A stretch of DNA of 57,318 nt, from NCBI RefSeq assembly GCF_018977255.1, contig NW_024705274.1:1-57318 (forward strand), written 5' to 3'. The position numbers and the translations under genes were made by a program. Source of the DNA: Callorhinchus milii. Lineage: Eukaryota. Position 1 is the stretch's first letter; each line of letters begins with the position of its first letter. A model generated the notes under the pieces. That model saw only the letters and a program-made list of their open reading frames with translations. It was not told the origin of the DNA and did no database searches. Shown here one piece after another: positions 1-24,919 of the stretch.

Positions 1-18
1 TAGCTCAGGCAGAATGTG

Positions 19-322
19 AGGGTCAGGGTAAGAGTCGTGTTTAGGTTTGGGTTGGGTTGGGGTCCGAGTCAGTGTCGGGGTAAGGGCTGGGTCAGGATCG
101 GTGTCAGGATCAAGGTAGAGGTTGAGGTCAGGATGAGTGTTGGGGTCAGGATAAGGGTTGGGTTGGGGTCAGGATAGGTGTCAGGGTAAGGGAAAGATTT
201 GGGGTCAGGATTGGTGTCATGGTCAGGGAAAGGATTGGGGTCAGGATCGGTGATAGGGTAAGGAATCAGTGTCTCGATACGGAAAAAGGTTGGAGTCAGG
301 GTACAGGTTGGGGTCAGGGTTA
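19..322. repeat. Degenerate hexamer tandem array (GGGTCA/GGGTTA/GGATCA-like), resembling telomere variant repeats
   Basis: Clear 6-nt periodicity: gggtca gggtaa ... ggggtc aggata ggtgtc agggta ... gggtca gggtta. Confidence 0.8.
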
Positions 323-350
323 CAGCACGAGCGCGAGCGAGCGGCGATAC

Positions 351-470
351 CTCCTCGTTGTCGGCGGAAGCTGCAGCCGGCCGTCCCTGCTGCGCCAAGT
401 TCCCGTACTCCGTGGTGAGCTGGCTGGCCAGCGATCCCAGATCCTCTGGCCGGCTCGAGGACTTGCTCAC
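351..470 (-). CDS. TLN2: talin exon (R10) VSKSSSRPEDLGSLASQLTTEYGNLAQQGRPAAASADNEE
   Basis: cag| ... |gtatcg; 120 nt. Confidence 0.92.
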
Positions 471-3400
471 CTGGTGGAGAGCAGCAGGAATGTGTCACAA
501 TGATGGCGAGCGCAACAAACCACCCCACACCCACAGGCCGGTAAAGTCAACCGTGTCAGTTTCTCAAACGCTGCGTCGGGTTTTGATATGTTGCACGTCA
601 GTTTTTTTTAGATACCCACAAAGTTTAGACATCGTCATTGTACATTTTTTCATGTTCCAAGTACATTTTGAGATTGCGTAAAATTTTAAGAAAAGCCCTT
701 TTAAAATGTTTCGGTATACTGCGTGGTTTTACTTTTTTTTATTATAAAAGTATCGATGTTTCAGATTAAATACCATCAAACATGATAATATTTGTGTACA
801 TTTTTGAGAAAACTCGTGTGTGAATCTGCGTGCATTTCCCACCATCTCCTGCGCCGTGACGGCAATGGCCTTGGCCGTCTTCACCATGGTCGTTTGGTAA
901 TCCACAAACGAGTACTGGGCGCCGGGGGCGTCCCTCGTCCATCTACAAGCGCCACCGGAGACAACCCCAACCCGCACATCACATCCGCATCATACAGGAC
1001 CAATCAACAACACGAGATTTCCCATAAAGCCCTCGTCTACATTGGCGGAAAGAAACCTTGCATGCCCCGGCTTCCTCTGGCATCGAGCAAGTGGAAGGCG
1101 CGAGTGTCGGGTGGAAGAGGGCGGCGCTCACCTTGCCGATGGCCTGTGAGATGGCATCCACCATCCCGCTGACATGCCCAGCTCGCTCGCCGTCTCGTTC
1201 AGCGTGGCCGTCAGGTCGTCCACGGCCTCGCGCATCATCTGGCTCGCCTCCTGGATCGCCTCGTGGGCATTCAACGCCTGTGCCAGCCGGGCGGATGATT
1301 AAAGACGGAGACAATCGATGACGCATTGCCGTGACCTGGTTTACCAATCCGAGTGTAAGCCACACGCCCCTAACTGACCCGAGTCTTCAAGTGTAGCAGG
1401 TTGGTTAATAGCCCAAGTCTAGTCCAGTGACAACTGCACATTCATCTCAGGGATGCTAAAAATGGGAATGTACTTGGGGTTCCTCCAGCCTCCTTGGCTG
1501 CATAGAGCAGCTGCAGCGCTGACTCCGCCAGGGTCTTCGTCTGGTCCAGGAGGTTCATCTGCTGCTGGTGGCTCAAGGACTTGGAGGCCATGCCCACCGG
1601 GCGAAAACCAACGGGTCAAAGTAGCTCGCCATCTGGGACACCTGCGCGGCATCCGACGACGATGAAGGGGGAGCGGTGGGGGGGGTGTTAGGTAGTGGCA
1701 GGGGGGGGGGGGATTGGGGGTGGGGGTGGTGAGTCAGAAATCTTTGTTTAATTAACAGATGGATGTCCTGAAAAAACATGATAATCCACAAAATCTCACT
1801 GTCCAGGAAGCAGGCTTCTTTGAGAATAGGCGGATTAAGAAAGTAACAGAAGCGAATTGTTGAGTTCATTGCTTGGCCACCTGTGGGGTGATGATACGAA
1901 GCTAACACTGCTGGATTGTTTTTTCCACCTGAGGACAAACGGTTGTGTTGCGATCGAAACGTCGTGATATATTATTCTTTGTTATATTTTTTTCTACCTA
2001 CGTGACTTTACCGAAAGAACCAAAGAGTATACTAACACAGGTTGTAATAAAAAAAATATCGGTGCGGTATCAAGTTTTTTTCCAGGGTACGATTTCGAAG
2101 GGCACACAGCAAGCGGTACCTTGTGCCCGAGCTGCGAGGCCTCCCCTCGCGCCACCGTGGCCACGGGGTCGATGGTGTTGCTGATCTGCTGCACGGTCGA
2201 GATGAGCTGCTCCTGCAGGCCCTGCACGCGTCGAGACGACCGCCGACCACCGAACTCCGTCACGCACGCATCTCCCCAACGGGATAGCAAACACTCGTTG
2301 AGTGCTCAAAATAGTCCTGTCGTGCGGCACAGGAGCCGCTGCGGAACTGTCTCGCAATTAAGTCGAATCAGCTCGCCAAGCCTCTGTGCAATGCCACCCC
2401 TCTTCGTATGACAAAAGGCCACACGCAGAAACATCACTTGTGCCACTTACATGGAAAATGATGTCCAAGGGTTGGCAGTAGCACACAAATGATCTCGCCA
2501 CGTTTGTCATTAAAAACACTGCCAACGACGAACACGATGATGGGCTAACATTTTCCACAAAGGTGCACGGCAACGTTTTAAGACATAATACTTATCGCAA
2601 GTGTAACCTCATAATATGAGCTGTCAATATTTGTTGATGGGTGGGATGAGTGTACAGGATGGAGTAGCGCAGGTCACCGGAAGGGCAGTTTAGGTGGCAC
2701 CCAGCGGTTGGCGACTATGGGAAGCCAGAGGGTGGCAGCGGTGGTGGTGGTGGTGAGATGCACCATGAAGGTCCGGTATAGACTTCAAAACAACTTAAAG
2801 CTTTAGTGGAAAGCGATGATGAGGTGTGGTGGCATCAACGGCGCGTGTCATGATGACTTCTCACCTTTACCTATTAAAAAAGCAATGCTATGGTTCAAAA
2901 ATGTTTTTTTTTACGATGACGGGTGGCGTTTGCGGGATGGCTGTGCAGGACCCCACCTCAACAGAGACGCCCTCGCGCGGGGCGAGGCTCTGACTGGCGG
3001 CCGCCAGGCCGGCCTGGTCCAGCTCGCGGAGGCAGTCGTCGAGCACGGCGATGGCCTTGTCGCACTCCTTCTGCCCGGGGCGCCATCCCTGCCCGCCAAG
3101 TGACAACACAGAACGCACGGTGAGTGCCGGACACTCAGGAACGTGACGATGTGAACAGTATGGCGGTGGCGGAGATGCAAATCGAGCGCGCGGAGGGCAG
3201 CACCTGATGGAGGTGATGAGCTTCTTGATGGAGTCGGACACGGAGCGGGAATGGCCGGCCAGCTTGGACCAGGTCGGTGGGTCTTGGGGCTTACGGCAAG
3301 CGAGCGCGCCGTGCCGATCAGTGCTGACGAGCTGTCCAGCATCGTCTTGCCGGCAGCCACAATGGGTTCTTGAGCACGGCGACCCTGAGAGGTGGGGGTG

Positions 3401-6400
3401 GTGGTGTCAAGTGGTGAATGCGTGGGGGCGGCAGTCGGACATTAGCACTCCACGGCAGAAAACACTTCTCTTTATAACGTTTTGGGATTGTTACGGAGCA
3501 TCTCATTGCCAGGTCACAGAAAATATTATTTAAAATTGGTTAATTAGTTCAATGGACGTTGGGGCAAGGACTGTTAGCAAGATGCTCTTGAGGCTGGTAT
3601 GGGCCATGAGAGGTTGGGTGAGGATGGCATATAAAACACTCGGGACTCAATTTAAGGCTGAGTCGACTATTGGAGGTCCAGAACACGTTCTGATAGTAAC
3701 TGCCACTCTGCTAGATGCAAATGCAACAGAAAAAAAAAATGCTCTTTTTGTGGAGATATGCGTGGAGCTGTGTGCTAGGTTAGCTGACATGAGGTTGAAA
3801 GTTGTTTATCAATTTAAAGCTTTCGTGACTGCAGGGATTCATCTTCTTGGTTCTTTCGGTAAAGTCACGTAGAAGGAAAATAATAAAATAATAAAAATAA
3901 AACATAATAAAATAATTCTCACGACGTTTCGGCCACAACGCAAGCAGCCGTCTTCAGGTGGAGAACAGGTCTGTCGAGAAGGACAGAGTCTGTTCTCCAC
4001 CTAAGACGGCTGCTTGCGTTGTGGCCGAAACGTCGTGAGAATTATTTTATTATGTTTTATTTTATTTTTTATTATTTCCCTTCTACGTGACTTTACCGAA
4101 AGAACCAAGAAGACGCAGTAAATTATGCTATTATTTAATTTATTATTTTATCTTTAGACGTGACTTAACCGAAAGAACCAAAGAACAAGCAAGTGTTGTT
4201 GCACATCTTTTGCACCTCCGATTAGCACGGGCGTCTACGTACGGTGCGAAAGAAGTTATACATATTTTTATTATTTTATTATTTTCCTTCTACGTGACTT
4301 TACCGAAAGAACCAAGAAGACGAGTGATTCTTCACATTAGAACGCTAAAACATTTCGGTTAAATTATGCTCGGTGTCATCACACCAATTCCACATTCATA
4401 AAAGTTTGGCAAAGTATCTAAAACAGGTTTTCCAAGTTTACACAAGATGTCCGACTTGTGTAATCAACGCGAGTGATGTTTATTTTGTAACCATAAAAGG
4501 TCTCCGTTTTATCACCTTTGTGAGGAAAAAAGCCGCCTGTAAAAAATCAACCCCCCCACCCCCAACTCACACCCCAGTGATTGAATGATTCGGCCTTACG
4601 ATTCTATTGGTCTTGTTTTTTCTGTCTCGTGTCTATTTTTCATTTGTACAGTTTTGTTTACTCCATTCATCTATGTGTAATATTACCAAATCGTTTGGAC
4701 GACTCTTAAATAATAGATTCTCGCTCGCACGACTTGACACTGGTATTATAACCATGAGAATACATTTTAAATGCTGAACCGATGTATTGTTACAAGCCCA
4801 AGTGACAACCCTTCGCTCTGTGTGCCCATCAAACACGCGACATTCTTTAAAGCACTCCCATCCCACGCCTGTGAATTCCAACACCTGTATATCATCGGCA
4901 CCGTCTTGTCAGCGGCAAAGTCGATGCTGCTTCCGGGAGGGCACCGAGCGCCGCTTTAAAACCGCGGTGCCGCGTTTCGCAGACGCAGAAGGCCGGGGGG
5001 GAGAAAGCGTTCACCTCTTCGCTGATGGACGCGGGATGCTGGAGAACTCGGGGTTGGAGGCGAACGTCGTCAAGTTCTCCACGGCCTCGATGAGCGGCAC
5101 CGTGGAGGCACGGCACTTCTCCCGGTTCCCGTCCGAGAAATCTCCGTCCAGTGCCTGCGAGGTTACGAGAGGTCGATTCAGAGCCCTGGCCTCTCGAGTC
5201 ATGGCGCCGAGGCGGCAGACGAGTGTGGAAGGCAGGCGGCCCGCAGCAGGTCGCACCGCACACACGCACCTTGATGGTCTTGACGAGGTTGGCAGTGCTG
5301 TTGGCCACCTCCTTTGCCGACTGCACAAAGTGCCGCTTGGCCACGGGGTTGGAGGTCTTGGACGATGCCAGGCGGCAGGCGTTGCACAGCGCCGACGTGT
5401 GTTTCGCCACGATGGTAGCCGCCGACAGCACCTGCACGCGTGCGGCCATGGTCAACGTGTGTGGCCACGATTAGCTTAGGCCCGTGTCTACCAAGCCTAA
5501 CGTGACCGTGGGCACTGGCCAGAAACGTCACAACCAACGGCGTGTTTTGCTTTGTGTACAAAACGACGCAGAAATAGGTGATGGCCTAAGAATGTCATTA
5601 GTTCAATTGATTACGTAATGTACTTTATCTAAAGTAAAAGTCCTTTAAACTAGTCATCTCTTTTTCTATGGAGACGTGGGTGAAACATATCAACCAAGTA
5701 ACCATGTAATATATAATTAACGGTACCATTAAATTCAAACCTTGCACACAAAAAACAGACAACAAGTTGTACCCATCACACCACACTTGCTTCCCAACAA
5801 ATGTTGGCACACAGCTTTGACACATGTTGGTGGGTGGCACTGTGTTATTGTGTTAAATACATTACTGTACATTGTGTTTAATTTATTTATTATTCTCACT
5901 GTGGTTGGTGATTGAGCAGCAGCTGGGCTGGAGGGTGGCTGTGGTGGTTAAATCAAAGATCCCCCTTTTAGCCTGAAATAATTTAGGGGGGGCAAGTGCT
6001 GTTAACGAGCACCGATGAAGGATGGCACGAAACACGAGGCTGTGGGGTGGTCAGCACCACACCTGACCACCTTTGACTTCCTCGTGGCAATTTTGACACA
6101 CTACACCAGGTACTCATTTGAGGCTGAGTAACCTAGGGGAGGCCAAGAACGGTTCAGATAATCGTCACTGATATTGACCACAAGCGGGAATCGAACTCGG
6201 GTCGCCAGGTTCGTAGAACAGCAAGCTAACCACTACACTACCGCTCCTCACAAAAGAGAAAGATCCCCTGGACAGCCTTTACAGACTGTAGGGGCATTGC
6301 TGCTGGTGATCACTTATGAAGGCCAACACGGCACATGCGGGGTGTGTCGCCAGCGCCATCCCTGGCCGCCTTGTCTCACTAGTGGCAACGTAATCACACC

Positions 6401-9400
6401 ACTCCAGGTACTAATTTGGGGCTGAGTCTACCTAGGGGAGGCCCGGACCAGTTCAGATACTCGTCACTTGTTTTGACCGTAAGTAGGAATCGAACCCGGG
6501 TCGCCTGCTACGAACCGCTACACTACCGCTCCTCACACCACACACACACGCGCACAAACACAATGGCGGGCCACTTACCTGAGACTGGTTGCTGGCGGGG
6601 TCCACCAGGTTCTGGCAGGCCATCTGGATGGCCTGGTTGGCGCGGGCAAACTGGCCCGGGTCCACAAGGCCCGGTTGTCCCGCCTGGCTGTTGGGGTCGG
6701 ACACGCCGACGAGGTACGCGGACTGCGGAGCAGAAGCAACATTCACTCAGCGATCGGGGGTAGGATGAATGGGTGGGGGGGAGATGGTTTGTGGCTTCTG
6801 GTAGACTTCACGAGTAGAAAATGGCAAATAGTTGAGAAAAAGTATTTAGACGTGTTCAAAATGAAGTTTAATGTCACAGTGAAATCTGAAGATGCAATGG
6901 CAAGTATACGAGATATTGGACAAAGTAGACCTCACTTATCCTCAAGACTTTTAAAGTTGGTTCTGCTTGCCACCTACAAACAAATTCCTTTTTGCATGTT
7001 TCTAATCTAGAGGAAATAAAATACCTCAGAGAAAACCCATCGTATATACGAAAATATAACACAAACTCAGGTGCAGAGATGAATTGCCAGAAGCAGCGGT
7101 GATGATAATGATAATTATGATAGTTATATTGTTGATTCAATATTCGTAGTGGTGCAAGCTTCACGGAGGAGTCACCTGTGAAGCGGCCTCTGTGAGCCCA
7201 CAGAGGGCCTTGGAGGCCGAGCTGATGGCCTCCCAAATGCAGGCAGGTTGCTCGTCTTAGCGTTCTGAGAGACTCCCTGCATGGCCTCACCCAGAACCTG
7301 CCGTGGGACGAGCAGCCGCAGACACCACCACCACCACATCAAGGATAGAACCACTTTCAAGGCATGGCTTTACCGACAGGTTAAACGAAAATGTTTTAAA
7401 CAAGTGAGACGATTCCACACCTTGGAATTTTCCATCAAACTGTCGATGCACTCGAAGTAAGAGAGGTCGTTGACAGGCTCGCTTGGGTTGTCCAGCATGC
7501 CCTTGACCGTCTGAAACACATCCATTGCGCGGTCTCTCAACGACGACGACAACAAAAACACACGTTCAAAGCTCATCGCTCGTGTCGCAAACAAAATTAT
7601 GAGTGAACTGTGTGGTGACGGGCACTGCGAGGTTGACGCACACACGCACCGTCAAGTTACAAGCCTAGGCTGCAATTCACGGTTTGCTGAGCACAGGCCC
7701 AAAGGTGCCAAATGGCAAGTGGCCAAGAAATAAAGAGCACAATTTAAGTTGTCATAGATAACAGTTAATGTACCTTGAATTGAGCAAGGTTATACGAACT
7801 CAGGAATAGAGATGATGGGAGGGTACGCCTCCCAATTCGAGGAGTGCGAGGAAAGAAGCAGATAGAGGAGTGACCAGCCGCATGGTAGTTGAACACGGTG
7901 TGTCTAAGGACGCAACAGACTCTTATAGGTGGAAATATCGGGGTGGTGGGGTGGGAGTGAACTAAATAGGAATAGCAACCACAGTAGCGGTGGTGACAGA
8001 AGATTATTTAGATTATTTGGCTGCTCTAAATTTCCATTTGATGAGCCACTTTGTTGAGCTATCATTTGTGGCAAGGTCGTTTCTGAAAAAGAAGCTAATA
8101 GCTCAGTGGGCTTTACCTGGAAATATAAAAGTAAGTTTAGTTTATTTGTATATTTGAGTGATTTGCCGCACAGGGCGGCGGTCCATACCTCGAGTTCGCG
8201 CAGGGCGTTGTCGCACTCGTTCTGGCCCGGTGCCTGCTGCGTGCACATGGTGATCAGCTGGTTGATGCTGTCCGTCACAGCACTGCGCAAAAAAACAAGG
8301 CATCGCACGGCAGCCGTTGTGAGACATATATACGTATGTAGGCATGATGACCGGAGTTTTGCGTGACGATTTACAGTCCTTGACGAGATCAGCAAGGTCA
8401 GCACTTGGTGTGTAATGAGTGCGACACGGGGGAAACCCGTACTCGCTCGTACACGGTTAAATGATGTCACCGTTTGGTGCATATTCTTGTTAACGTAGCC
8501 ATGCATTTACATATATAGTGTTGGATTTACTTTTAATTGGATGCTGCCTCTCTCTTTATTGCTGTGCTCATTCTAAGGAAGGCACTGATTAATTGAGTGC
8601 CTTCGTAGGCACTCAATAAATACACACAATCTCCAACGGTTAACTTCCATTTATGTGCCAGTTTTCCATGCCTATGTCTGGGTCAATTGGCCCTTACTTG
8701 GTTTAAATAAGTCTAGGTAACACTACTATAATTAATATGTAACGAGTGTTTGTTATACTCTGCATCCTCATATGGATATAAGGTTGGAAAGATGAATCAC
8801 CAACCTAAAGTTTAGTGTCACATCGTTACTTTTAATTTCCTCTCACATAGCTTTAAGCAGCTCTTCAAGCATTACGTTTTCATACGCTCAGTAAATTAGG
8901 CAATGTGTCTATTAGTAATAAACAAATATATAGTGCATGGACAGGCAGTCTTTTGGGTCTTCTAGCAGCATTTATTTAAACTCTAGATTGGTTTGAACGT
9001 CAGAGTCTCATCAGCATCAAATACGTTTAATTTAAACTGGAGTTATCTGCTGTCTGTTTAATACGTACATTTATTTTCCATGCACCTCAACAGCAGCGCA
9101 TTGAGAATCGTTAATTACCGTTGGGATGATTAGTCGCTGAAGTTGCTTATCGACTACTTTTTTGTGTTCGACAACTCGGGGCCCGTTAAAAAATGGCGGT
9201 CACCGCAACATCTTGCCTCTCGAAGGCAGGAAACCCCCTGCAAGTCACGGCGTGATGTGGCTGATGACGCCACTGACACTGCCCAGCCCGCCAATCACCT
9301 CCCATCAAAGCGACACGCGTGGAAACGGGGTGACATGTTTTTGCCGCAACTATTTTCTGCTATCCGATGAATCCAGTAATTGAACCGATGACAGGTAGAG

Positions 9401-12400
9401 AATTTGATTACTTAAATAATTGGATATCCCAGCTCTATTTTTAGTAACCGAGTGAAACGTGGACAGGTCACGGTAGCTGCGCACCGTGCAGCAGCTGCCA
9501 GCTGGTTCTTGGCGTTCGGGGCGTTGGGGTCGACGCAGAGGGCCTTGGCTGCCAGCAGCAGCTTGGACGACGACATGGAGATACTCTTCAGGTTGCCCAC
9601 CACCTGCACTTGGTCCTCCTTCGTCTGTGCGTCAGCATGAGAGACGAAGGCCCACACAAACCCCAATCGGCACGAGTACTTTAGCTTGCAAGCCATGTTT
9701 TACAAAGGCCGATTGTCCATTGCCACAACCACTTTCATTAACGCTATGAATGTTCCCGCAAATTTTTCCTTTTGCAAAATATATTTTGGTTAAATCACCA
9801 TCACAAGCCTTGTAAGGCCTAATAAACAACAAAAGCCTTTGACTAGTCCACTCTAGTCACACAAGCCTTGGCCTCGTGTGGGCATTTAGCATCGTCACCG
9901 AGTAAGATACAAGAACCTCACTGCATTCGCCGACAAGCAGCACGGCTATGTGGGGGCAATACGCACCTTTGCCTGCCCGGCCATGTCGATTCCGGCATCC
10001 AAGAAGCGCGAGAAGTCGTTGCCGAACTTGCGCGAGGCGGAGGAGAGCTCCTGGCTGGAGCCGCGCGAGGCCTGCACCAGCTCGCTGGCCGACAGGTTGA
10101 GCCCAGCCGCCGCGTCGTTCAGGTTGCCCTGCGCCTCCTGGAAACTGCTGCCGCTGCGCGGGATCTGGCAGCAACAACGACGACGACGACGACAACGACA
10201 CCGGTCAACGGTTAATAAAACAACGGTGCGGACGGAGGCACCATCAACGTCCAAAGGCTCGGAGAAGAGACTGCGGTCAAACAGTAAAGGGAACACCGTA
10301 ACAGGGTCCACATGCATTACGGAGCATTAATTTTACATGCATTCGCAATAAATCTCGACTCGCTGCTACGGTAATGTGTGCCCTAATAAAAAAATAAATC
10401 AATGACCGTAAATGTGAAGCACGTTACATTTTTTTGACTGTCAAACGAACCCTAGAAGATTATAGCAAATAACGTCGCAATTTGATCCAGAAGGTTGCGC
10501 GAAGGTGATTTTTGCTCACCGTGTCGGACAGCAGCTTCTTGCTCTGGTCGGCGAGGCTACGCAGAGCCGTGTCGACGTCCTGCTGCCCAGGCAGGCAGCC
10601 TACGCACTTGCCCAGCGCGCCAGACACCGCCTTGGCCACCTGTGCCCCCAGGCCCCACGGGAACACACACACAAGCCCGTTCGTCCAATAAGATTCCAGA
10701 AAGAGGCTGGAGGGGTGGAAGGAAGGACAGTGGTTGAGGAGCTACGGGCGTTGGCCCACTCCTCTGAACCAATGCTCCCTCCCACTACTCTGGGAAACGT
10801 GCCGTTTTCTCAAGCTACCCTGCTGTCAAGCTCTGCACAATTTACAGTTTACAACTCCTATGTATACGGCATTACACTAGCGTACACTTGGGGCTTCCTA
10901 ATGGTTACACGCTGACACTGGGAAATCTAAAGCATTTCCACAATGAGACAATGATTCTGTGATAGATAAGAAATCTTCCTATTTTCAATCCACTCTTTTG
11001 AATCACGCATAACACGGCCAATCTCACGCATTAGCTCTCTCGTAATGGGAGCGCTCGGACAATCAGTTGGTGTGGCGTCAATTCTTCCATGCTGCCCCCA
11101 AAGTCAAGAGAAATCTCCTCATATCGTCCACCTCCCAAATTCTTCCCTCTTTCTAAATCCAGACTACACATTTAATTTTCCTTAACTGCTAAGATACATT
11201 GTTGACTGGTGAACACATACACAACGAACACATAGCGGCAAACAAATTGTTGGAAAGATATCTCTCCCATGGACCGCATGCATACGGCTAAAAAACATTC
11301 TGGAGAAGCCTATCTAATTTGAACCATTACTGTATAAACATGCGTACACTAACACGTGCTATTTCATGTTCGTGCTCTCTCTCTCTTTGTCGAGCACTTC
11401 AAGCGTCGGACCTGGGCCAGCCTCTGCTGGTTGATGGGGTCCCCGGGCCGCACCACGGCCTTCTTCGCCTCCTGGATGAAGAGCGACGCCTTGTCCATGA
11501 GGTCGCGCGCAGACTCCAGCACGGCCTCCTGCGTCGGCTTGTCGGCCGAGTTGGCGGCCAGGCCTCGCGCCGCCGCCGCCAGCTGCTTGAGGGCCTGCGC
11601 CGTGTCGCGCGCCGCGATGCCTGCGTCGGGGATTCACACGCGTGCCGGGGACGAGGCGCTCGCGGGTGCACACGGAGCGCCGAAAGCAACGCGGCACGGC
11701 CAGGCTGCGAGCGGGTGGCGGAGCAAGAATTTTTGTTGAACCGTGTCCGACACACGCGAATCCGGGCGCGTCGCGGTCTCATCGTGCGATGGGAGCGTGC
11801 GGGTGAGGTGACCGCACCTGTGTAGTTCTCGTTGCCCTGGGAAGCTGCCGTCATCACCTGTGCCATGGAGGAGCCCACCGTCTTGGAGGTGGCTCCCAGG
11901 TCCTGCGCACACTTCTCCAGCTTTGGAGAAAAACAGAACAAATTAAGGGACGGGGAAACAAGTACACCGATGCTGTTGCACTGCTGGTGCAGAGGTGCGA
12001 GGCTTCATGGTAAAAATGTGATTAGGATGCCTTTTCCGCGAGAGATTTTTCTGCATCACCCAACCATTCTCTGCAAGGAATATATGCTAATAATCATGAA
12101 TATGAAGTTACGTTGGCACCGCCCATGACAGAGACAAACATATAAGCAAGCAATAAGAGTTAATGAATGTGATATGGTTACAATTTTTGTAAGCCTATTA
12201 CTAGTTCTCGCTTAATACTGGTAACTGTGAAAGGTAGAAATGTCTCAATTACTACTGAATGATGTTGCCCTGGTAATGGTTTTGATATTAAATTAAACTC
12301 CAGCTATGATTTGAGTTTTCTTTGGGTCTTTCGGTAAAGTCACATAGATAGGTTCAAAGAAAATAACAAAAAAACTAGTAGAATATGAATAGAATATGGA

Positions 12401-15400
12401 TTCCTGCAGTCACGAAAGCTTTAAGTCATGATTTCAGTTACTTTGCATATCAGTAAGCAACGACGAAGTGGCTCTTTCGCTGTACAAAGATAGGTCTCTC
12501 ACTTTATGGTCCCACGTCGACTCTTGCTTCTTACTCATCATCAGCCATAATCTATCCACTGCTGGATGAAGAGCACTACAAGCCACTGCCAACCCTCATG
12601 CACAGATGGCTATGTAGGTGCGAAAGAAGTTCAACATACATACATGTTCACGCAATGCAAAAATCCATACAGCTCCTGCACAAGAGATGAGCCCATTACC
12701 CTTTCTCTTCTGTGGATGTACCCTCGAGCGTTTTCCCTCCTTTGGCTGCTACGCTCGTAAATTAGCCTCGACCACCGGTCACCATCCCTTGTGGTAACGT
12801 GGACTGCCAAGCCCACTTACTTTTCTTAAAATCCAATACGACGCATTTCGAATTTTATCAGCACATTTGGTTTGCTTAATAACCACATTCGCAGGGGCAT
12901 TACACATTTACACCTCCCAGCGTCATTAAACATGTTTTGAAAAACACACATCAGACTGTGGCGGCCGTGGATACAGGCAATTGAATATTATTTCATGAGA
13001 CAGAGGCTTCTGTGGAGGAGCATGGTGATGGGATGTCCGTAAGAAGAGTGGGGACTGCCCTTGCACAACAGAAGAGGTACGGAATCAGAAGAGCATGTGG
13101 TGTGAAACGGTGTGGCACGCAGGATGATGATCAGGGTTATTCCTTCAGGAAGTGGGGATCACCCCTCTGTGACAGGGAGGACTGCGGAGTTCGGCGAGCT
13201 GCGGGGTGTGGACAGGGCACGGCACCCGTACCGTCTCGCCGGGTAGTGGGTGAAGTTTCCCGTCGGCGGCCGCCACCTTCGCCTCCTGCAGCTCGGCCTC
13301 GAGCGAGCGGACGAGGTCAAGGGCCGAGTCGATCTCCAGTGTTCCGCACGCATCCTGGGCCTGGCACAACACAAACTAAACTATTTAAAACTATTTTTTT
13401 TTTACCAGAGAAGGCCTACTGAGCTATATAGCTCTATTTCAGAAGCGACCTGACTACAAATGATAGCTCAACGAAGTGGCTTATCGGGGAAATTTATTGG
13501 AGCCAAATATTCCGAATGGATGTTTCTAAATGTGGAGGGAAAAATGAGAGGATTCGGAAAAGAATCCACAGGACCGCAGGGAGAATATGCAAACTCCAAA
13601 TATACAGGGTCGGGATCAAACTCACGAAGTCCTGCATACCTGGCGAGGTAGTTAACATCTCGCCACAGATGCATGAGGATACGGAACAAACACAGCAACA
13701 TAATACTGGCACCGATAACTCAACTTCTACTGGCACATCCAAGCATAGTCAGCGCAAGGCCGCCACGTTACAGGTGGTTTTCTACAGGTCACGTTACGTG
13801 CCGAGCCGGAACCAAACCAAGAAACTGTGGCGTCGTGAGACATCTGAATCTGACGTGGGGTCATACAGGGCCAGGGGTAGGGACAATGATAAGTTGTCTG
13901 ATACGAGTTGGCAAATTCCAAAAACATTATCACAGCGTAACCTATATGTGAACAGACTTTTGCGTTGCAAGTGATGGAGTGTAGATTTTAATTTGGTATT
14001 TCAACAATTCAATCACGAAATATCCCACAATGTGCTCGCTGTCCATTTCAATTATGTAATTATGCAAAGGGCTAATGACAATTCGCCCTCTCGCGAAGCG
14101 GTCAGTCATCACGATTGGGAGTCAAGAATTTTGTTGCTTTTTACGTTGTGGTAAAAGTAGTACCTCTGGTGGCTGTCGCAATTACTTGAACAAATTACAT
14201 CCAACATATACACATCGAAAATATTGAGCAATGAATGGAGTCTTCCACATTTCAATATCCGTATCGTGAATATAGACTCAATTGCAATGGCATCGTTACC
14301 TGCCCCATTATGGACATGGACACAAAGACAAAGATGCCCCATATAGCCTGAACACTGTTGGGGCAAGTGCTGTTCGCACATATGAAGGCCAGGCACGGTA
14401 CACGATGGTTTAGGGTGGCCAAAAGCATGCCCGGCCGTGCGCACACCACACACATGCACAGATGTGAACCCACAAACTCACACGAAACCTCTCTGTAATA
14501 AAAACCTAGCCGTAAGTAAGTACTGACAGCATTCTCTCTAAATCAGCATGGCCTCATGCCTATATATGTCACATACGAGACAACAATCAGACAGAGGGGG
14601 AGGCAGCCGGCTGCCGCATAAACAACACTAAGCGGATTCCACAGCGTCGACATCACACGCGGCCCGGGGGGGGGGGAAGAACGTCGGCGCGATCGGTAGA
14701 TTTACGATTCACGACGACGCCGCCGCCGCCACGGCCACCGCAGCGGCGTCTCCCCACCTTCTGTGCAGCTGTGCGCAGCTCGGCGAGGCAAGTGGCCAGG
14801 TTCTTGGCGCACTGGCCCAGCTGCATGGACGAGGCTTGGTCCGTCACGGTCGGAACCGACGCTTTGGCGGCTGCCACCATCTTAGTACCCGGCTGCAAAG
14901 AGAGAGAGGGGAAACGGGGTAAAAAAAACACGTCAGTGATCGAGTTGGTGTATCCGCAGTGGCCACCACGGACTTGGCCCTGTAGCGAAACCGCTCCCTT
15001 ATCCGTACCCCGATAGTCCGCTCTTCCTCTTTATCTGAGCTCCCCAATCCATCCAAGAAAGATTACAATTCAGTGCAACGTTTCATTACGATTCACACCT
15101 CCGATTAGCATGGTTGCGAAATCAATTCAACATACACACGTACATACGACTTATGGGGCACTGAGGTATAGGTGAATATGTGAAAAGGTCACAAAAGCAA
15201 AGTTTATAGGGAATAATAACCATTTTTATACTTTTTAGGCATAAGCCATTAAATAATAATATTAGTACCCAAGGAACAAAAATTGTGTTACATAGTGAAA
15301 TATATATAATGTTATACCGTGCACAAATACTGTACTGGATGGGAATGGTTAACTGGTCAGAGCGGATGTGATGGTCAAATATGCGACATTGCAAATGAAG

Positions 15401-18400: not shown

Positions 18401-21400
18401 CGACCCCACCCTACCAGATTTATCTCCCTCTCTTCGTAGCTTGGCGCTTGGGTGTTTGCTGAACCAAAGGCCTGGGTTAAATTGCACTGCTTGCACGCTC
18501 GATAACGTTTGCCAACCGATTCCTAAACAAATCTCAAATGTTTTCAGAAATTTTAATGGTCTGTTCCGTTCAGGAAAGTCACACCGCTAATCAAATGTGT
18601 CAGCAGTGGAAATTCCACACTCCTATAGTGGAGCCAGTCAAGCCAGAGGTCAATGTCCCACAAAGTGGTGTGCCACATCACCATGATCATCTTTAGCAAT
18701 ATGCGCAAAGCACTCTTTGATTACTCATGCATGAACAAGTATATTGTGAAATCTCTACAGTCAATATATTATATTGTAAAAATATACAATTTAGTAATGA
18801 TTTAAAAAGTCGATTATAAAAAGGGACAGAATCTCAATCCTTAAAAAAAAAGTTTTATCTTCAGTCAATCTGTTATATGCATTATTTGTTGCTAAAATTG
18901 TATATTATATATCTAGTAATAGAAAAAAAAAAGTTTTCAAACATTTTCTGACCTTCGCAGCCTCGACCATCTTGGCGGTGGCATCAGCCAGGTACTTGGC
19001 GGCCGCGAGGAGTTTACGCGAGTTCTCCTGGTCTCCTTCGGCCTCCGCGTCCACCTTGATCGCGTTGATGAGGTCAGACGTGGCCTGGGCCAGCAGCCGG
19101 GCCTGCTTCACCATTTCACCTGCCCCCGAAAAAAACGCGACTCCCGTTCAATAAAAAAGAATGCGGGCATCCAAGCGAACACGACGTAAACACTCCAAAC
19201 GACAGCCACGAGGTCCTCTCCAGGGGCCCCTCTTATACTGTCAGCGTGGCCTGGCCCGCCCCCGGCCACGCGCCCTTCTGGAACCTACTAGCGGTTCTCC
19301 ATGTGCCCCTTCTGTGACCCTTCCCCGAGATCCCTCTTTTGTCTATCACGTGGCCCGCTGTCAGTCAGGGCTGCTGTAAGCTGCAGATCCCCTTCCCTGC
19401 CAGCAGCTAACGCTGTGCTGCTACGTGACCGATTCTATGTCACTAAACATACATACCACAAAGATAAAACAATTATCTACATGTGACTAATCATTACATT
19501 CCTAAAAGGTAACACAAACTCACTCAAACAAAACAGGAAAGCCAAGGTGGACGCTGCAACCTTTTGGAACAGCGCCACGCCCTGCCCCACCCCCCGATGG
19601 CGCTGGCTGCATTGGCAGGGCATTGCAGTGCAGAGGATAGGAAGGGTGGGTGTGTATGTGACTGATTGATTGGGTGAGTGGGTAGGTGGCTGGGTGCGTT
19701 GCAGGGTCACCTGCGTTGCCGGTTGAGCTGAAGATGCTCTCGGTGGCGGTGATGATGGTGTCGGTGGCGCAATCGTAGCGGCCCATGCCGTGCCCGCCCG
19801 ACGCCAGCAGCTTGACGTGCTGCAGCAGCGCGTCGAGCGCCTGCGTGACGGCGCCAGCAGCGCCGCCGACCTGGCGGAGCAGCTCGTCGTCCTTGGTGGC
19901 CTCCTGCGACGAGCGCACGCAGCCCTCGACGGCACGTGCCACCAGCTTCCCCGACTCCATCAGCTGCTCTTGGCACACGGGCGAGTCCATGGTGGGGCCC
20001 ACCACCTGTGCACCGCAGGACGATCGCTCTATTAGCAAAATGACCACCATCACGTGGTGACCACGCCACGTTTCGCCTGTTGGAACTTTCGCACAAATCG
20101 TCGATGCAAAAGATGTCGTCGCAAGGCACCCGGAACTCAACTCGTCGATTCCCCGGTATGAGCAGCAACTCTACAGCTTTGTAGCTGGTGAAGCAACGTG
20201 TCGTTTCATTATTGTTGAATTACCGTTTGTCGTTGCTTTAAACAATATTTATTTCCATGCCTTAAATTACAGCTGGGCTATCCGAGTATTTCAGCAACAG
20301 ATTACTGAACCATGCCATATGCTGGCTGTGTATACTCGGCGGTCATCGATTATAATTCTCACGTTCACAATACAAGCAACAAATAGTGTGTGCGAGATCA
20401 AAAACTTACAATTCATGAAAGATATGTGTTGACCAGCTGAACCTGGTGAAAGCGACAGGCAGCGAGGACTGACCAATGGCACCGGTGATGAGCACTGGCT
20501 AATACGGCTGACGCGGATTAGTCACCGAAACTGCAAATGGGGACAGGCCAATGGGACCGAAAGCAGGGACAGGTTGCAGTGACCCGTGGCAGGGACTGGC
20601 TGCAGGGACTGATGAGAGGAGCCTCTGCTAGTGACTGGCAGAAGGCGTTGGTGGAGGCACCTTGGTGCAGGCAACGAGCTGGGACGTGGACAGCGCGCAC
20701 TGCGTCGCCGCAGCGATCACTTGGTTTTGCAGGGCTTGGTCGTCCGCCTTCTGGGCAACCGTCTTGGCCTTGAGCACCAGGCCAGCGGCTGCATTGGCGA
20801 CCGCTTTGGCCAGCTGGTTCAGCACGTCCTGGAGACACGCGGAGAACGTGGGACATGTGAGGGAGACAAGGGGGCAAGGAGGATAGCGGAGGGGAGGGGA
20901 ACTTGAAACCTCTGCTGCGATGGCATAACATGTAACAGGCACACTCGAGTGAGCGTGTCACCACCTGTCTAATTCACTTCCCCCTCTTCGTAGCTTGGCG
21001 CTTCAGTGTCTGCGGCCCAAAGGCCTGGGTGAAATTGCACTGTCAGCACACTCAATGAAGCCAACCGATTCCTAAACACATCTCAAACGTTTTATGAAAA
21101 GTTATCGGTCCGTTCCGTGAAGTAAAGTCACACCCCTGATCAAATGTGTCTGTCGTGGAAATTCAACACCCCTGTAGTGGAGCCAGTCAAGCCATAGGAC
21201 AATGACTATTGATGTCCCACAAAGTGGTCTGCACATCACCATTATCATCCGTTGACAAGCGAAATAGGCCCACTCACAGCGAGTGAGCGTGTCACAATTT
21301 ATTTACCGTTTCATTTGTTTGTTGTTAGCTCAAGGCGGAATTGCGTGGGGAATTTCCCGCTGAGCTCTTCCCAATGGGATGGCAGGCGGGCAAGCAAAGT

Positions 21401-24400
21401 CAATAACAAACAGGCATGGGCAGAAAGCGTTTAATTTACATTTCAACCGCAATTTGGTGTTATGTAAGAAATATATAAAAACGGACAAAATGTTCGGCGA
21501 AAATATTCCACCGCTGTCACTGTCGTTAACACACACAGTCACATATTGCAACTGAAATATTTACTAAAATAATATATTTGTGCAATGGCCCTTATTCAGA
21601 GCACGTTGGTTTTTGTGATTTGATGATAAACAGCATTGCACTTTTCTGACTGAGGGAAACCGCACAGTGTCACGAAACTTTTTTTCAGGAAGGTGCTAAA
21701 TTGGGATGTTTGGTTATGTTTATCAATGTAGATTTATTCTAAAGTCAGGGAAAGAATTGAACAAGGTGTTGTCGGTTGGCTGGAAAAGACCATGAAGTAA
21801 AATTAAGACACCTAACATCAGAAAATTTCCTTAGATATTAAAAATAATGTAATACACTATAATTCCGTATAAAAATCGGTATATCTTTCAAATGTTTAGT
21901 TCTGCAAATTAAAAAAACACTTACATTCACGGTGTACAGTACAAAAACACAAGTCCTTGATGCAGTGCAAGTAAAATGTAAACAGTCACAGGCCCACACC
22001 ACAGCCTGGTGTAAATGATGATAACGATAGAGTCCTTTATGCAGCGAAGCCTTGCTGTGTTTCAACACTCCTTCCCACAGCCATACCCACAGTTTTTAAA
22101 TCTACACGAGCACCGAGTGCAACGCTGTACTGCCAACTCTGGGCTGAACAGCCCCAAGCCTAATATACCTGGTAATAGTTTATAGTTTAGTTTATTCTAA
22201 AGCAGTCTCCCTTCCAAGTATTCACAATAACCTGAAACTTGAAATATAGATTTTTTTTGTCGTTTGTTTTTGTTGCTATGCTAACACACCACGGATATCC
22301 TGTCCAAATAGCAGGGACCATCTGTGAAAAAATAAATAAACTCAACAATCTAAAATCATAAACTATTTTCTATTTTACCAGGTAAGGTCCACTGAGCTAC
22401 ATAGCTCTTTTTCAGAAGCAACCTGGCCACAAATGATAGCCCAATGAAGTGGCTTATCGTGTGGATATTTATAGCAGCCAAATACTCTTAACGTATCTTT
22501 CTAAATGTGAAGAGAAAAATCGAAGAACCCGGAGAAAATGAAACGCGACCACGGGAAGAACGTGCAAACTAAAAATATTCAGGCGTCAGTCGGGATTGAA
22601 CTCACGACCTCCTGCATACCAGACGAGGTTGATAAAATCTCTGAAGACAGTGATTCTGTGATTCAGCCATCGGCGGTAAATATGTAGTTTGGTCGTGGAG
22701 TGTTGTTTGTGAATCTCACGGGCGCCTAACCTGGAACTGCTGGTCCACACCTTGCTGGCCAATCTGCTTGAGGAGGTTGTTGCTCGACCGCCCAACGGTG
22801 CTGGCCGCTGTGAGCACCGCCTGGCGAGGCTGCACACACCACATGGCATGCTGATCGCTCACCATTCACTCACGATCACTCGTCAGACGTAGATCACTCA
22901 CCATGAACAGATCACTCAACATTCAAGCACCGTGTCTCGTGTGCCAAGACAAACTTGATCCTTCACCATTCGTACAAGGTATCGCGGGCCGCATGCTTAG
23001 CAATGACCCATGAATCATTCGCCTTTCGCACACAGAATTGTGCAAAACCCACCAGTCACTCACCAATGAGCCACCAACAGACAATAAAAGCATGCCGAGC
23101 AAACAATAACTTTAAAAAGATAATCAAACTGAGCTCTCCGATGCTCTCAGGCCGATATCTGGAGGGCAGAGAGATGCGTGTGTGCAATGGAAAGGAAGCC
23201 ACGGGCACCGTGGTGACGTCACCGCCGTTTAGTGGTGAATGGTGGCTGTTGCTGTTGTGAAGGAGTATTGCCAGGAGAATGGCGTGGCCTCACCTCTGTG
23301 GACGACGGCTGCACGGTCTTGAGCAGGTCGGAGATGCAGTCGATGAGGCCGCGCGCCGCTTGCAGCAGGGCCCTGCCATCGCCGCCCTCCTCCTCCGTGA
23401 GCGCCGCGAGCAGACGAACGCCGCGAGACATCTCAGTCAGGTTCGACGAGATCGTCACCACGGCGCAGCCCACCGCTGTGTAGTCCGTGTCGGCTGCGTC
23501 GCCTGAAGCCGGGAGGCGGTGGAGGTAGAGGAGGAGTGGCGGGAGGAAGAGGATAGGAGTTACCAGAAAGATAATTAATGGATAAAATTTTATTACACAG
23601 CGGGCAGCAGCAGAGGTGGAAATGAATCACGGCAGTAGCAGCGGAGGTGGCATTTGAGCGATAAAATTGCGATGAATAGATCGATTGAGGAAATGAGTAA
23701 AATATTTCAAATTGTAAAAGACCAATAACAGCGGGTCTAATTTATAAGTTGGCCAAAAGACAGCTCTGGGCCAATTTTTTACAACAAAAAAATTCAAATC
23801 TCCACTTGTGGGAGTGTTTTATACCAAGACACAAATGGCCATTCGTGTATTTTTTTTCAGTGAATGGAAAAGATGAATCCACAAGACCAGGCATAGCAAG
23901 AAAGCCAGAACAGGCGACCCAACTGCTAAGGGTCGTGCGTGGGAAGAGTAAACGCTGACCAGATGTAAGGTTGATGCAGGAGGCAGTGCTGGCATTTATA
24001 GCATCCACTTGCGAATGGATCTCATGCTTTGCCTGGTCCATCTTGTACTGACGCCAGGCCTTGGATGCCTGGAGGGATAAGGGCGGTGGGGGTGAAGATG
24101 GTGAACTTAAGGTCACGGGGCTACAACATCAAAGAAAACAAACGCATTACTCTATTTGACACTGATGTAATGCTCTAATGCTATCTACACTTCTTACAAG
24201 AATAAATAACAAACATAAGCCAAAGCCTAAAAAGACCATGCCACCTCCAGTGACATCTCTACAGCGACCCTCAAAAATCCATCCATGGTACCACGTTTTC
24301 GGGGTATCACCTGCCCCTGCCCCCCCCCCATGCCAACCAAGCAATCGGGTGACCCCTGACCTTGTCTTGCCCGAGCGGGGGCAACGCGTCCATTTCATCC

Positions 24401-24889: not shown

Positions 24890-24919
24890 NNNNNNNNNNN
24901 NNNNNNNNNNNNNNNNNNN
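24890..24919. other. 30-N gap or junction
   Basis: Run of 30 n. Confidence 0.99.

What the first reader, a model, noticed from the sequence alone, without database searches (positions are those of the whole stretch)
3842..4111. ~270-bp near-perfect palindrome in a talin intron pairing a hammerhead-like motif with its own antisense copy
Seen: 3842-3975 and 3982-4111 are reverse complements around a ~6-nt loop (gagaag), with only a few indels. Each arm contains the hammerhead-like motif. Known: Penelope-like elements often carry an inverted partial pLTR, and their pLTRs contain minimal hammerheads. Inference: in the talin pre-mRNA (minus strand) the antisense arm is transcribed first. The ribozyme motif would then be locked in a ~130-bp duplex, which could prevent cleavage of the host transcript. 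The duplex would also be a candidate ADAR or Dicer substrate and a possible DNA cruciform. Near identity of the arms implies a recent insertion or ongoing gene conversion.
Basis: partly seen in the sequence, partly recalled or inferred. Interest (0 to 1): 0.7.

Follow-up and report, generated by a model that had tools for sequence, protein, structure and literature searches.

The report
Penelope fold-back insertion in talin intron
The 270-base palindrome is in the sequence, but it is two head-to-head stubs of a very abundant Penelope-like jumping gene, a well-described kind of insertion, and nothing found here shows that its hairpin protects or regulates the talin message.

Summary
The palindrome is in the assembly: arms 3842-3975 and 3982-4113 differ by 2 substitutions and 4 one-base gaps, inside a 1,630-nt talin intron. 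It is a head-to-head pair of 5'-truncated pLTR ends of a Penelope-like element (PLE), most likely a lamprey Poseidon family. The left arm's minimal hammerhead matches the published Petromyzon marinus Poseidon motif at 36 of 43 positions and keeps all six helix II pairs. The family is very abundant in three public DNA runs, and shorter head-to-head joints recur there. The right arm's core lacks one G, possibly an assembly error. The pre-mRNA should fold into the hairpin, but protection is probably unneeded: metazoan minimal hammerheads are reported inactive alone, and no sense partner lies in the window. Arm divergence equals ordinary flank divergence, so gene conversion is not required. Family-wide RNA reads show an A>G/T>C excess suggesting ADAR editing, as reported for Penelope in lizard and frog; none can be assigned to this locus. 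No listed record spans the palindrome centre. Ordinary.

The parts
5015..5154 (-). Talin exon upstream of the intron in the pre-mRNA; 140 nt, one base short of a whole number of codons in this assembly
   Evidence: Match to talin-1 chains, Talin_IBS2B below curated cut-off; frames and donor site; exon start read by hand
3385..5014 (-). Talin intron (1,630 nt, GT...AG) that hosts the insertion; the tail end is 427 nt from the acceptor, the right arm about 900 nt from the donor
3204..3384 (-). Talin exon downstream of the intron; changes frame once in this assembly
   Evidence: Two frames each match successive parts of talin-1
3812..3841 (-). 30-bp PLE 'tail', attached to the left arm only
   Evidence: Family matches end at 3812 with low-agreement AT-rich letters beyond; other copies continue into this tail behind 2030 and 4113 (loose ends); second tail copy at 12391-12424
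3842..3981 (-). Left arm: 5'-truncated pLTR end, element sense on the minus strand (same strand as talin); the 6-nt loop is probably this copy's own 5' sequence
   Evidence: the RNA loose-end consensus before 4005 matches the loop at 5 of 6 letters (compared by eye)
3916..3965 (-). Minimal type I hammerhead motif: helix I 3965-3958 with 3922-3916, core CUGAAGA 3957-3951, helix II 3949-3944 with 3936-3931, GAAA 3930-3927, predicted cut after GUC between 3923 and 3922; no helix III
   Evidence: 36 of 43 positions identical to the P. marinus Poseidon row in the supplement of PMC4209133 (by eye)
3970..3987 (.). Junction: 6-bp inverted repeat around a 6-nt loop, set off from the main arms by the only central mismatch and gap
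3982..4113 (+). Right arm: 5'-truncated pLTR end without tail, element sense on the plus strand (antisense in talin pre-mRNA); core lacks the G of CUGA at 4002/4003 in this assembly
4122..4191 (+). Older, decayed 3' fragment of the same family (about 80% identical)
4263..4323 (+). 61-bp 3' fragment of the same family, 60 of 61 identical to the left arm; possibly from the same event (two direct plus one inverted copy)
   Evidence: its right junction is in single-copy-depth contigs of X1, X2 and X16
1921..2026 (+). Separate copy in another talin intron, antisense to talin; core letters intact but 3 of 6 helix II pairs broken
   Evidence: pairs read by eye
12319..12424 (.). Separate miniature head-to-head insertion: 3' fragment on minus (12319-12385) and tail fragment on plus (12391-12424)

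Best explanation
An inert product of one retrotransposition event of a Penelope-like element, most likely a lamprey Poseidon family. Inferred from published Poseidon biochemistry: the element's protein nicked the AT-rich intron and began reverse transcription at the family's two start sites about 30 nt apart, which explains one arm with a tail (end 3812) and one without (end 4113). Copying stopped just upstream of the hammerhead, and the two short copies were joined head to head through the 6-bp inverted repeat at the centre, either by annealing of two cDNA ends or by fold-back self-priming; I cannot tell these apart. Both arms run through the predicted cut site, so the template RNA was uncut there. 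If the intron is transcribed it should fold into a 130-bp hairpin that may be A-to-I edited like other copies, but this is a by-product: the lone motif has no helix III and no sense partner, so it is not expected to cut the talin message with or without the duplex. Shown: anatomy, family identity by motif, one-sided tail, abundance, shared left junction. Inferred: insertion mechanism, neutrality, editing at this locus, lamprey host.
For: Hammerhead 36 of 43 identical to the P. marinus Poseidon motif, with two compensatory changes and one wobble change keeping all 6 helix II pairs (by eye). One-sided 30-bp tail and head-to-head orientation as described in PMC3846280 and PMC8557442. Tail shares 11 of 14 letters with the lizard Poseidon sequence printed in the supplement of PMC11167929 (by eye, window chosen after looking, modest support). 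111,940, 92,848 and 68,246 contigs laid in three DNA runs, with depth piled on the repeat bins. 5 of the 15 listed joints (of 2,024) are shorter head-to-head junctions, 3 of them in all three DNA runs. A second miniature example at 12319-12424. Single minimal motifs gave no detectable cleavage; the lizard Poseidon motif cut only with its protein and left no RNA-seq ends at the cut site. Only one sense-strand motif in 57 kb.
Against: No PLE reading frame is attached: none can fit at the insertion, and 0 of 49 ORFs scanned (45 beyond 23 kb plus 4 near the locus, of 130 ORFs of 85 aa or more) hit an RT or GIY-YIG family. No target-site duplication was found; best candidates had 2 mismatches in 8 or 3 in 11. 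No listed record spans the centre or the junction after 4113. The head-to-head joints rest on sides of only 20-27 letters in contigs. The clade call rests on one published row, not on a consensus library. No RNA read could be tied to this locus, so neutrality is untested.
Confidence: 0.87

Rival explanations
1. Functional lock: the antisense arm is kept by selection because it stops a sense-strand ribozyme from cutting the talin pre-mRNA.
For: The antisense arm is transcribed first and the duplex (-219 kcal/mol) far outweighs the hammerhead fold (-12.5 to -16). Of the two motif copies with intact core letters in the window, the sense one is paired and the unpaired one is antisense. Helix II is conserved with compensatory changes against the published row.
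Against: n = 2 copies. Monomeric minimal motifs are reported inactive or dependent on the element's protein. Inverted arms are the normal PLE insertion product. The compensatory changes reflect the active element's history, not this copy. Arm divergence is no lower than neutral flank divergence. Unchecked notes on the same genome report intact sense-strand motifs in other introns.
Confidence: 0.05
2. Fold-back artefact of sequencing or assembly.
For: No listed piece spans the centre. The window has one-base losses in both flanking exons and is shorter than the contigs that cover it (621 vs 627, 428 vs 432, 251 vs 255, 904 vs 905), so it is not a polished sequence.
Against: Unique flanks on both sides continue in talin exon order. 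The arms differ by 2-3 substitutions and by the tail, and the right arm stops where many family copies stop. Single-copy-depth contigs join the left flank to the tail (X1 record 6 to 3833; an X2 contig ending at about 3834) and the 4263-4323 fragment to the right flank (X1, X2, X16).
Confidence: 0.04
3. A MITE or other palindromic DNA transposon, a non-LTR retrozyme, or a microRNA gene.
For: Long inverted arms; Rfam gives MIR6136 at E 3.7e-9 on both strands; retrozymes carry type I hammerheads.
Against: The Rfam score (61.7) is far below the gathering score (99) and equal on both strands, as any long hairpin gives; no Rfam hammerhead family was among the 5 hits. Family copies are mostly single 3' ends with variable 5' truncation, not fixed two-ended units; the ends are asymmetric; no tandem array of motif-bearing units.
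Confidence: 0.04

Closest known systems
Minimal hammerhead (min-HHR) of the Petromyzon marinus Poseidon PLE, AEFG01030262 (Cervera and De la Pena 2014, PMC4209133; main text parts 1-2 of 4 and supplement file 2 parts 1-2 of 3 read)
   Same: 36 of 43 positions, same helix and loop lengths, no helix III, extra base after the core, palindromic GAAAC-GUC junction. The paper also reports dual motifs on opposite strands 100-700 bp apart in Schistosoma and an opposite-strand second motif in a truncated Cotesia element.
   Different: Seven substitutions, five of them in helix II; no RT frame attached here; the two copies are directly joined as a palindrome.
Head-to-head inverted pLTR insertions with a one-sided 30-40-bp tail in endonuclease-positive PLEs (PMC3846280 and PMC8557442, passages read)
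   Same: Head-to-head orientation, short palindrome at the junction, tail on one end only, possible two-direct-plus-one-inverted layout with unrelated DNA between direct copies.
   Different: Both arms are pLTR-only stubs of nearly equal length; no target-site duplication found (the Adineta paper also describes copies without one).
PAc, Poseidon of Anolis carolinensis (Frangieh et al. 2024, PMC11167929; main text parts 1-2 of 4 and text of supplement 1 read)
   Same: Two 3' ends about 30 nt apart, AT-rich target, hammerhead upstream of the tail, similar tail core (11 of 14 letters), template apparently uncut.
   Different: PAc's frame starts at helix II; no start codon lies there in this copy, and an AT-rich stretch follows the motif. 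No biochemistry exists for this family in what I read.
A-to-I editing of Penelope repeats in lizard and Xenopus tropicalis (PMC5625713, PMC10636886, passages read)
   Same: Family-wide A>G/T>C excess in RNA; short 3' stubs and palindromes make tight dsRNA.
   Different: Here only a change spectrum from one RNA run against other individuals' DNA contigs; no site-level calls; lamprey is not mentioned in PMC5625713's main text.

Membership tests
Metazoan PLE minimal hammerhead (min-HHR) | Core CUGANGA, extra base, helix II closed by G-C, GAAA, then N-UH | tested here: met
   Left arm 3957-3923 against the consensus; 0 of 100 shuffles gave a match to the pattern. Right arm fails (missing G), possibly an assembly error.
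Metazoan PLE minimal hammerhead (min-HHR) | Short helix I, no helix III, palindromic junction for dimer formation | tested here: met
   Constrained fold -12.5 kcal/mol; a cofold of two monomers pairs them through the junction region; monomer fold z = -1.85, 13 of 200 shuffles as stable
Metazoan PLE minimal hammerhead (min-HHR) | Self-cleavage as dimer or with protein | not testable with these tools
   Needs an assay; the polyA run showed no pile of ends but cannot show such ends reliably
Endonuclease-positive Penelope-like element insertion | 5'-truncated copies, inverted partial pLTR, head-to-head | tested here: met
   recurring joints
Endonuclease-positive Penelope-like element insertion | 30-40-bp tail on one end only | tested here: met
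   3812-3841 on the left arm only; two family end points
Endonuclease-positive Penelope-like element insertion | RT plus GIY-YIG frame in an autonomous partner | tested here: inconclusive
   None at the locus; 0 of 49 scanned ORFs; no whole genome held. The link rests on the published P. marinus partial Poseidon.
Endonuclease-positive Penelope-like element insertion | Target-site duplication (optional in PLEs) | tested here: not met
   No convincing duplication at three candidate right ends; PMC3846280 describes copies without one, so this is not disqualifying
Poseidon clade | Placement by RT phylogeny | not testable with these tools
   No RT sequence available; assignment by motif and tail similarity only
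Non-LTR retrozyme | Tandem units each with a type I hammerhead | tested here: not met
   No such tandem array; definition
MITE / palindromic DNA transposon | Fixed two-ended unit with symmetric terminal inverted repeats and a duplication (recalled definition) | tested here: not met
   Asymmetric ends, variable truncation, solo 3' fragments
MIR6136 (Rfam RF03987) | Gathering score 99 bits | tested here: not met
   61.7 and 60.3 bits on the two strands

The most novel reading that the evidence does not exclude
Head-to-head integration works as a built-in safety catch: sense-strand hammerheads that could cut with the element's protein or a second copy are tolerated in host introns mainly when the same event supplies an antisense arm that is transcribed first, and these self-folding stubs form the main ADAR substrate of lampreys, an Alu-like role for a ribozyme-bearing repeat. 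The editing half has family-level support here (A>G plus T>C at 88 of 187 places in RNA against 29 of 121, 27 of 121 and 43 of 149 in DNA) and I put it alone at about 0.6, but it repeats what is reported for lizard and frog. The safety-catch half has only two copies behind it.
Probability: 0.06. Interest if true: 0.55.

Novelty: new member of a known kind. Interest (0 to 1): 0.14.

Why it matters
As it stands, little: one of a very large number of stubs of a described element type, whose lamprey hammerhead was printed in 2014. It is a tidy example for the mechanism of PLE integration (both ends, the tail and the junction microhomology are readable). If the family-wide editing signal holds, it names a likely major ADAR substrate in a jawless vertebrate; my searches listed no lamprey editome paper, which does not show that none exists. 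If paired sense copies were enriched in introns genome-wide, it would be the first sign that these minimal ribozymes threaten host transcripts in vivo.

Tried and rejected
Own genome: none held, so no genome-wide copy count, orientation test or search for the autonomous element. Two protein searches with single talin exons to name the organism found nothing at E 0.001 (full-length talin exceeds the searched length range); the lamprey call is therefore an inference from the P. marinus motif match and vertebrate-type talin. A 24-nt family motif found 0 matches in metagenome contigs. Rfam returned 5 hits, all below gathering, none a hammerhead family. No RNA holder was listed on record among the 20 holders; this says nothing on expression. 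In RNA run X21 the talin exons and unique intron had essentially no depth; the tool drops human-like reads, so I draw nothing from it. X1 record 7 (single-copy depth, matches 3840-3931, then 226 unlisted letters) could not be assigned to this locus. An 11-bp direct repeat at 4119 and 4360 was considered as a target duplication of a nested insert and left unresolved. Gene conversion rejected as unnecessary. Searches of earlier findings by sequence and by seven words returned nothing. Paper searches for lamprey plus hammerhead ribozyme (9 papers, listing only) and lamprey plus hyper-editing (0 papers) gave nothing relevant. Supplements I could not see may bear on family identity: file 1 of PMC4209133, the GenBank file of PMC11167929, and those of the retrozyme preprint 10.64898/2026.07.22.740005 (part 1 of 5 and passages read; no mention of lamprey in its main text). 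PMC4350176 passages added nothing specific.

Full report
Observation. The palindrome is in the window. The arms are 3842-3975 and 3982-4113; aligned as reverse complements they give 135 columns with 2 substitutions and 4 one-base gaps, and a third substitution just beyond the right end. The minus-strand RNA folds at -219 kcal/mol, against -59.5 +/- 4.7 for 200 shuffles. The host is a talin gene on the minus strand: the exons on either side match talin-1 chains, and the intron runs from 5014 to 3385. The insertion is deep in the intron, 427 nt from the acceptor and about 900 nt from the donor.

The motif. A strict minimal-hammerhead pattern has 2 matches in the window and none in 100 shuffles: 3923-3958 on minus (left arm) and 1928-1963 on plus. 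The right arm lacks the G of CUGA. The left-arm motif has a short helix I, a six-pair helix II and no helix III. The supplement of PMC4209133 prints a motif from a partial Poseidon element of the sea lamprey Petromyzon marinus. By eye, the left arm matches it at 36 of 43 positions without gaps; five of the seven differences are in helix II, where two pairs change on both sides, one becomes a wobble, and all six still pair. That is the main ground for calling the family Poseidon and the host a lamprey; two protein searches meant to name the host found nothing, so the host is inferred.

The unit is larger than reported. The left arm continues for 30 bp (3841 to 3812) that the right arm lacks. 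In reads and contigs of four public runs (4 of 24 listed), family matches end at 3812 with low-agreement AT-rich letters beyond, while copies laid at 2030 and 4113 continue into this same 30-bp sequence (24 of 2,485 loose-end rows shown). This is the one-sided 30-40-bp tail described for Penelope-like elements (PMC3846280, PMC8557442; passages). In the lizard Poseidon PAc the tail lies between two reverse-transcription start sites (PMC11167929), and the sequence printed in its supplement shares 11 of 14 letters with the tail core here (by eye, chosen after looking, so modest). Further family fragments lie at 4122-4191, 4263-4323 (60 of 61 identical to the left arm), 1921-2026 and 12319-12424; the last is a miniature head-to-head pair with a tail. 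No target-site duplication was found, and no RT or GIY-YIG family hit among 49 of 130 ORFs scanned.

Abundance and recurrence. 111,940, 92,848 and 68,246 contigs from three DNA runs were laid on 1800-5200, with summed depth of millions on the repeat bins against about 70, 20 and 17 on unique flanks (the tool warns this is no copy number, but it indicates a very large family). Of 15 joints listed (of 2,024), 5 read along the left arm and continue on the right arm after skipping the centre, as shorter head-to-head palindromes at other loci would; 3 of them appear in all three DNA runs. Their shorter sides are only 20-27 letters in the contigs, so this is supporting, not decisive.

Is it real, and how old? 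No listed piece (24 of 235,699) spans the centre or the junction after 4113. But single-copy-depth contigs join the left flank to the tail in X1 (to 3833) and X2 (to about 3834), and join the 4263-4323 fragment to the right flank in X1, X2 and X16, runs labelled as three organisms. A fold-back artefact would not be expected to give a tail on one arm or exon-ordered unique flanks on both sides. The window does look error-prone: both flanking exons shift frame by one base, and covering contigs are longer than the window (627 vs 621, 432 vs 428, 255 vs 251, 905 vs 904). The arms' one-base gaps, including the missing core G, may therefore be assembly errors. Substitutions between the window and unique flanks were 47 of 2,888 (X1; 4 of 8 listed pieces, repeat pieces dropped), 23 of 2,486 (X2; 7 of 8, one duplicate interval dropped) and 69 of 2,360 (X16; 8 of 8), predicting 1.2-3.9 differences in 133 nt; 2-3 are seen. 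The arms have aged normally since an insertion at least as old as the split between these samples' lineages. Gene conversion is not needed.

How it most likely arose. Inferred from PAc biochemistry: the element's protein cuts both strands of AT-rich DNA and starts copying at two sites about 30 nt apart, which gives one arm with and one without the tail. Both copies stop just upstream of the hammerhead and meet at a 6-bp inverted repeat around a 6-nt loop; the loop resembles the family's own upstream sequence. Joining by annealing of two cDNA ends, or by fold-back self-priming as proposed in PMC3846280, both fit. Both arms run through the predicted cut site, so the template was uncut, as reported for PAc.

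What it does now. But a single Schistosoma minimal motif gave no detectable cleavage and dimers only low activity; the PAc motif cut only with its protein and left no RNA-seq ends at the site; and this pre-mRNA has no second sense motif in 57 kb. There is probably nothing to protect against. Unchecked notes on the same genome report intact sense-strand motifs in other introns and several similar fold-back stubs; these are leads, not evidence.

Editing. In the polyA RNA run X21, 71,397 reads were laid, 0.89 of them running on into unrelated sequence, so they come from other copies. Places with A>G or T>C numbered 88 of 187, against 29 of 121, 27 of 121 and 43 of 149 in the DNA runs, while G>A plus C>T stayed at 35, 35, 33 and 35; Fisher p = 0.0007, 0.0006 and 0.02 for the ratio of the two classes. 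Caveats: reads against contigs, different individuals, incomplete counts in the DNA runs, non-independent places. It suggests family-wide ADAR editing, which is already reported for Penelope in lizard (over 40,000 sites, PMC5625713) and Xenopus tropicalis (PMC10636886). Nothing ties it to this locus: unique intron and exons had essentially no depth in X21.

Verdict. A correct catch of an ordinary object: a fold-back stub of a Poseidon-type Penelope-like element with a published type of minimal hammerhead. New member of a known kind; interest 0.14. The boldest reading left open, a selected antisense lock on sense ribozymes plus an Alu-like editing role, I put at 0.06.

Noticed in passing
window 5015-5154 and 3204-3384: Both talin exons flanking the intron shift frame by one base, and contigs from other runs are a few letters longer over the same stretches; most likely assembly errors rather than a pseudogene.
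   Followed up: partly
window 1800-5200, run X21: A>G and T>C changes are about two to three times as many in RNA reads of this repeat family as in DNA contigs, while G>A and C>T are not; a hint of family-wide A-to-I editing.
   Followed up: partly
window 4212-4257 and 12610-12643: A second high-copy repeat end (continues into ACAT-like repeats in reads) sits between the two extra PLE fragments; not identified.
   Followed up: no
window 4119-4129 and 4360-4370: An exact 11-bp direct repeat brackets the two extra PLE fragments and the second repeat; a possible target duplication of a nested insert, or chance.
   Followed up: partly
window 2026-2031 to 3812, joints: 7 to 38 contigs per DNA run read a family 3' end followed by a reversed tail end (tail-to-tail order, letters between unknown); unexplained.
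   Followed up: no
window 3843-3811 (minus): The pLTR end and tail read as a short frame from an ATG (11 codons translated); PMC3846280 notes that pLTR plus tail encode the first residues of the element's protein.
   Followed up: no
window 8007-8139, 13371-13661, 22345-22641; 18425-18691, 20979-21249; 6052-6252, 6351-6537: Three other dispersed repeat families (74-81% identity between copies) in talin introns, probably SINE-like; one has copies in both orientations.
   Followed up: no
window 21-325: G-rich degenerate tandem array (periods 12, 18, 36) in a talin intron.
   Followed up: no
window 24890-24919: A 30-N gap; beyond about 24.1 kb none of the ORFs of 85 aa or more hit Pfam.
   Followed up: partly
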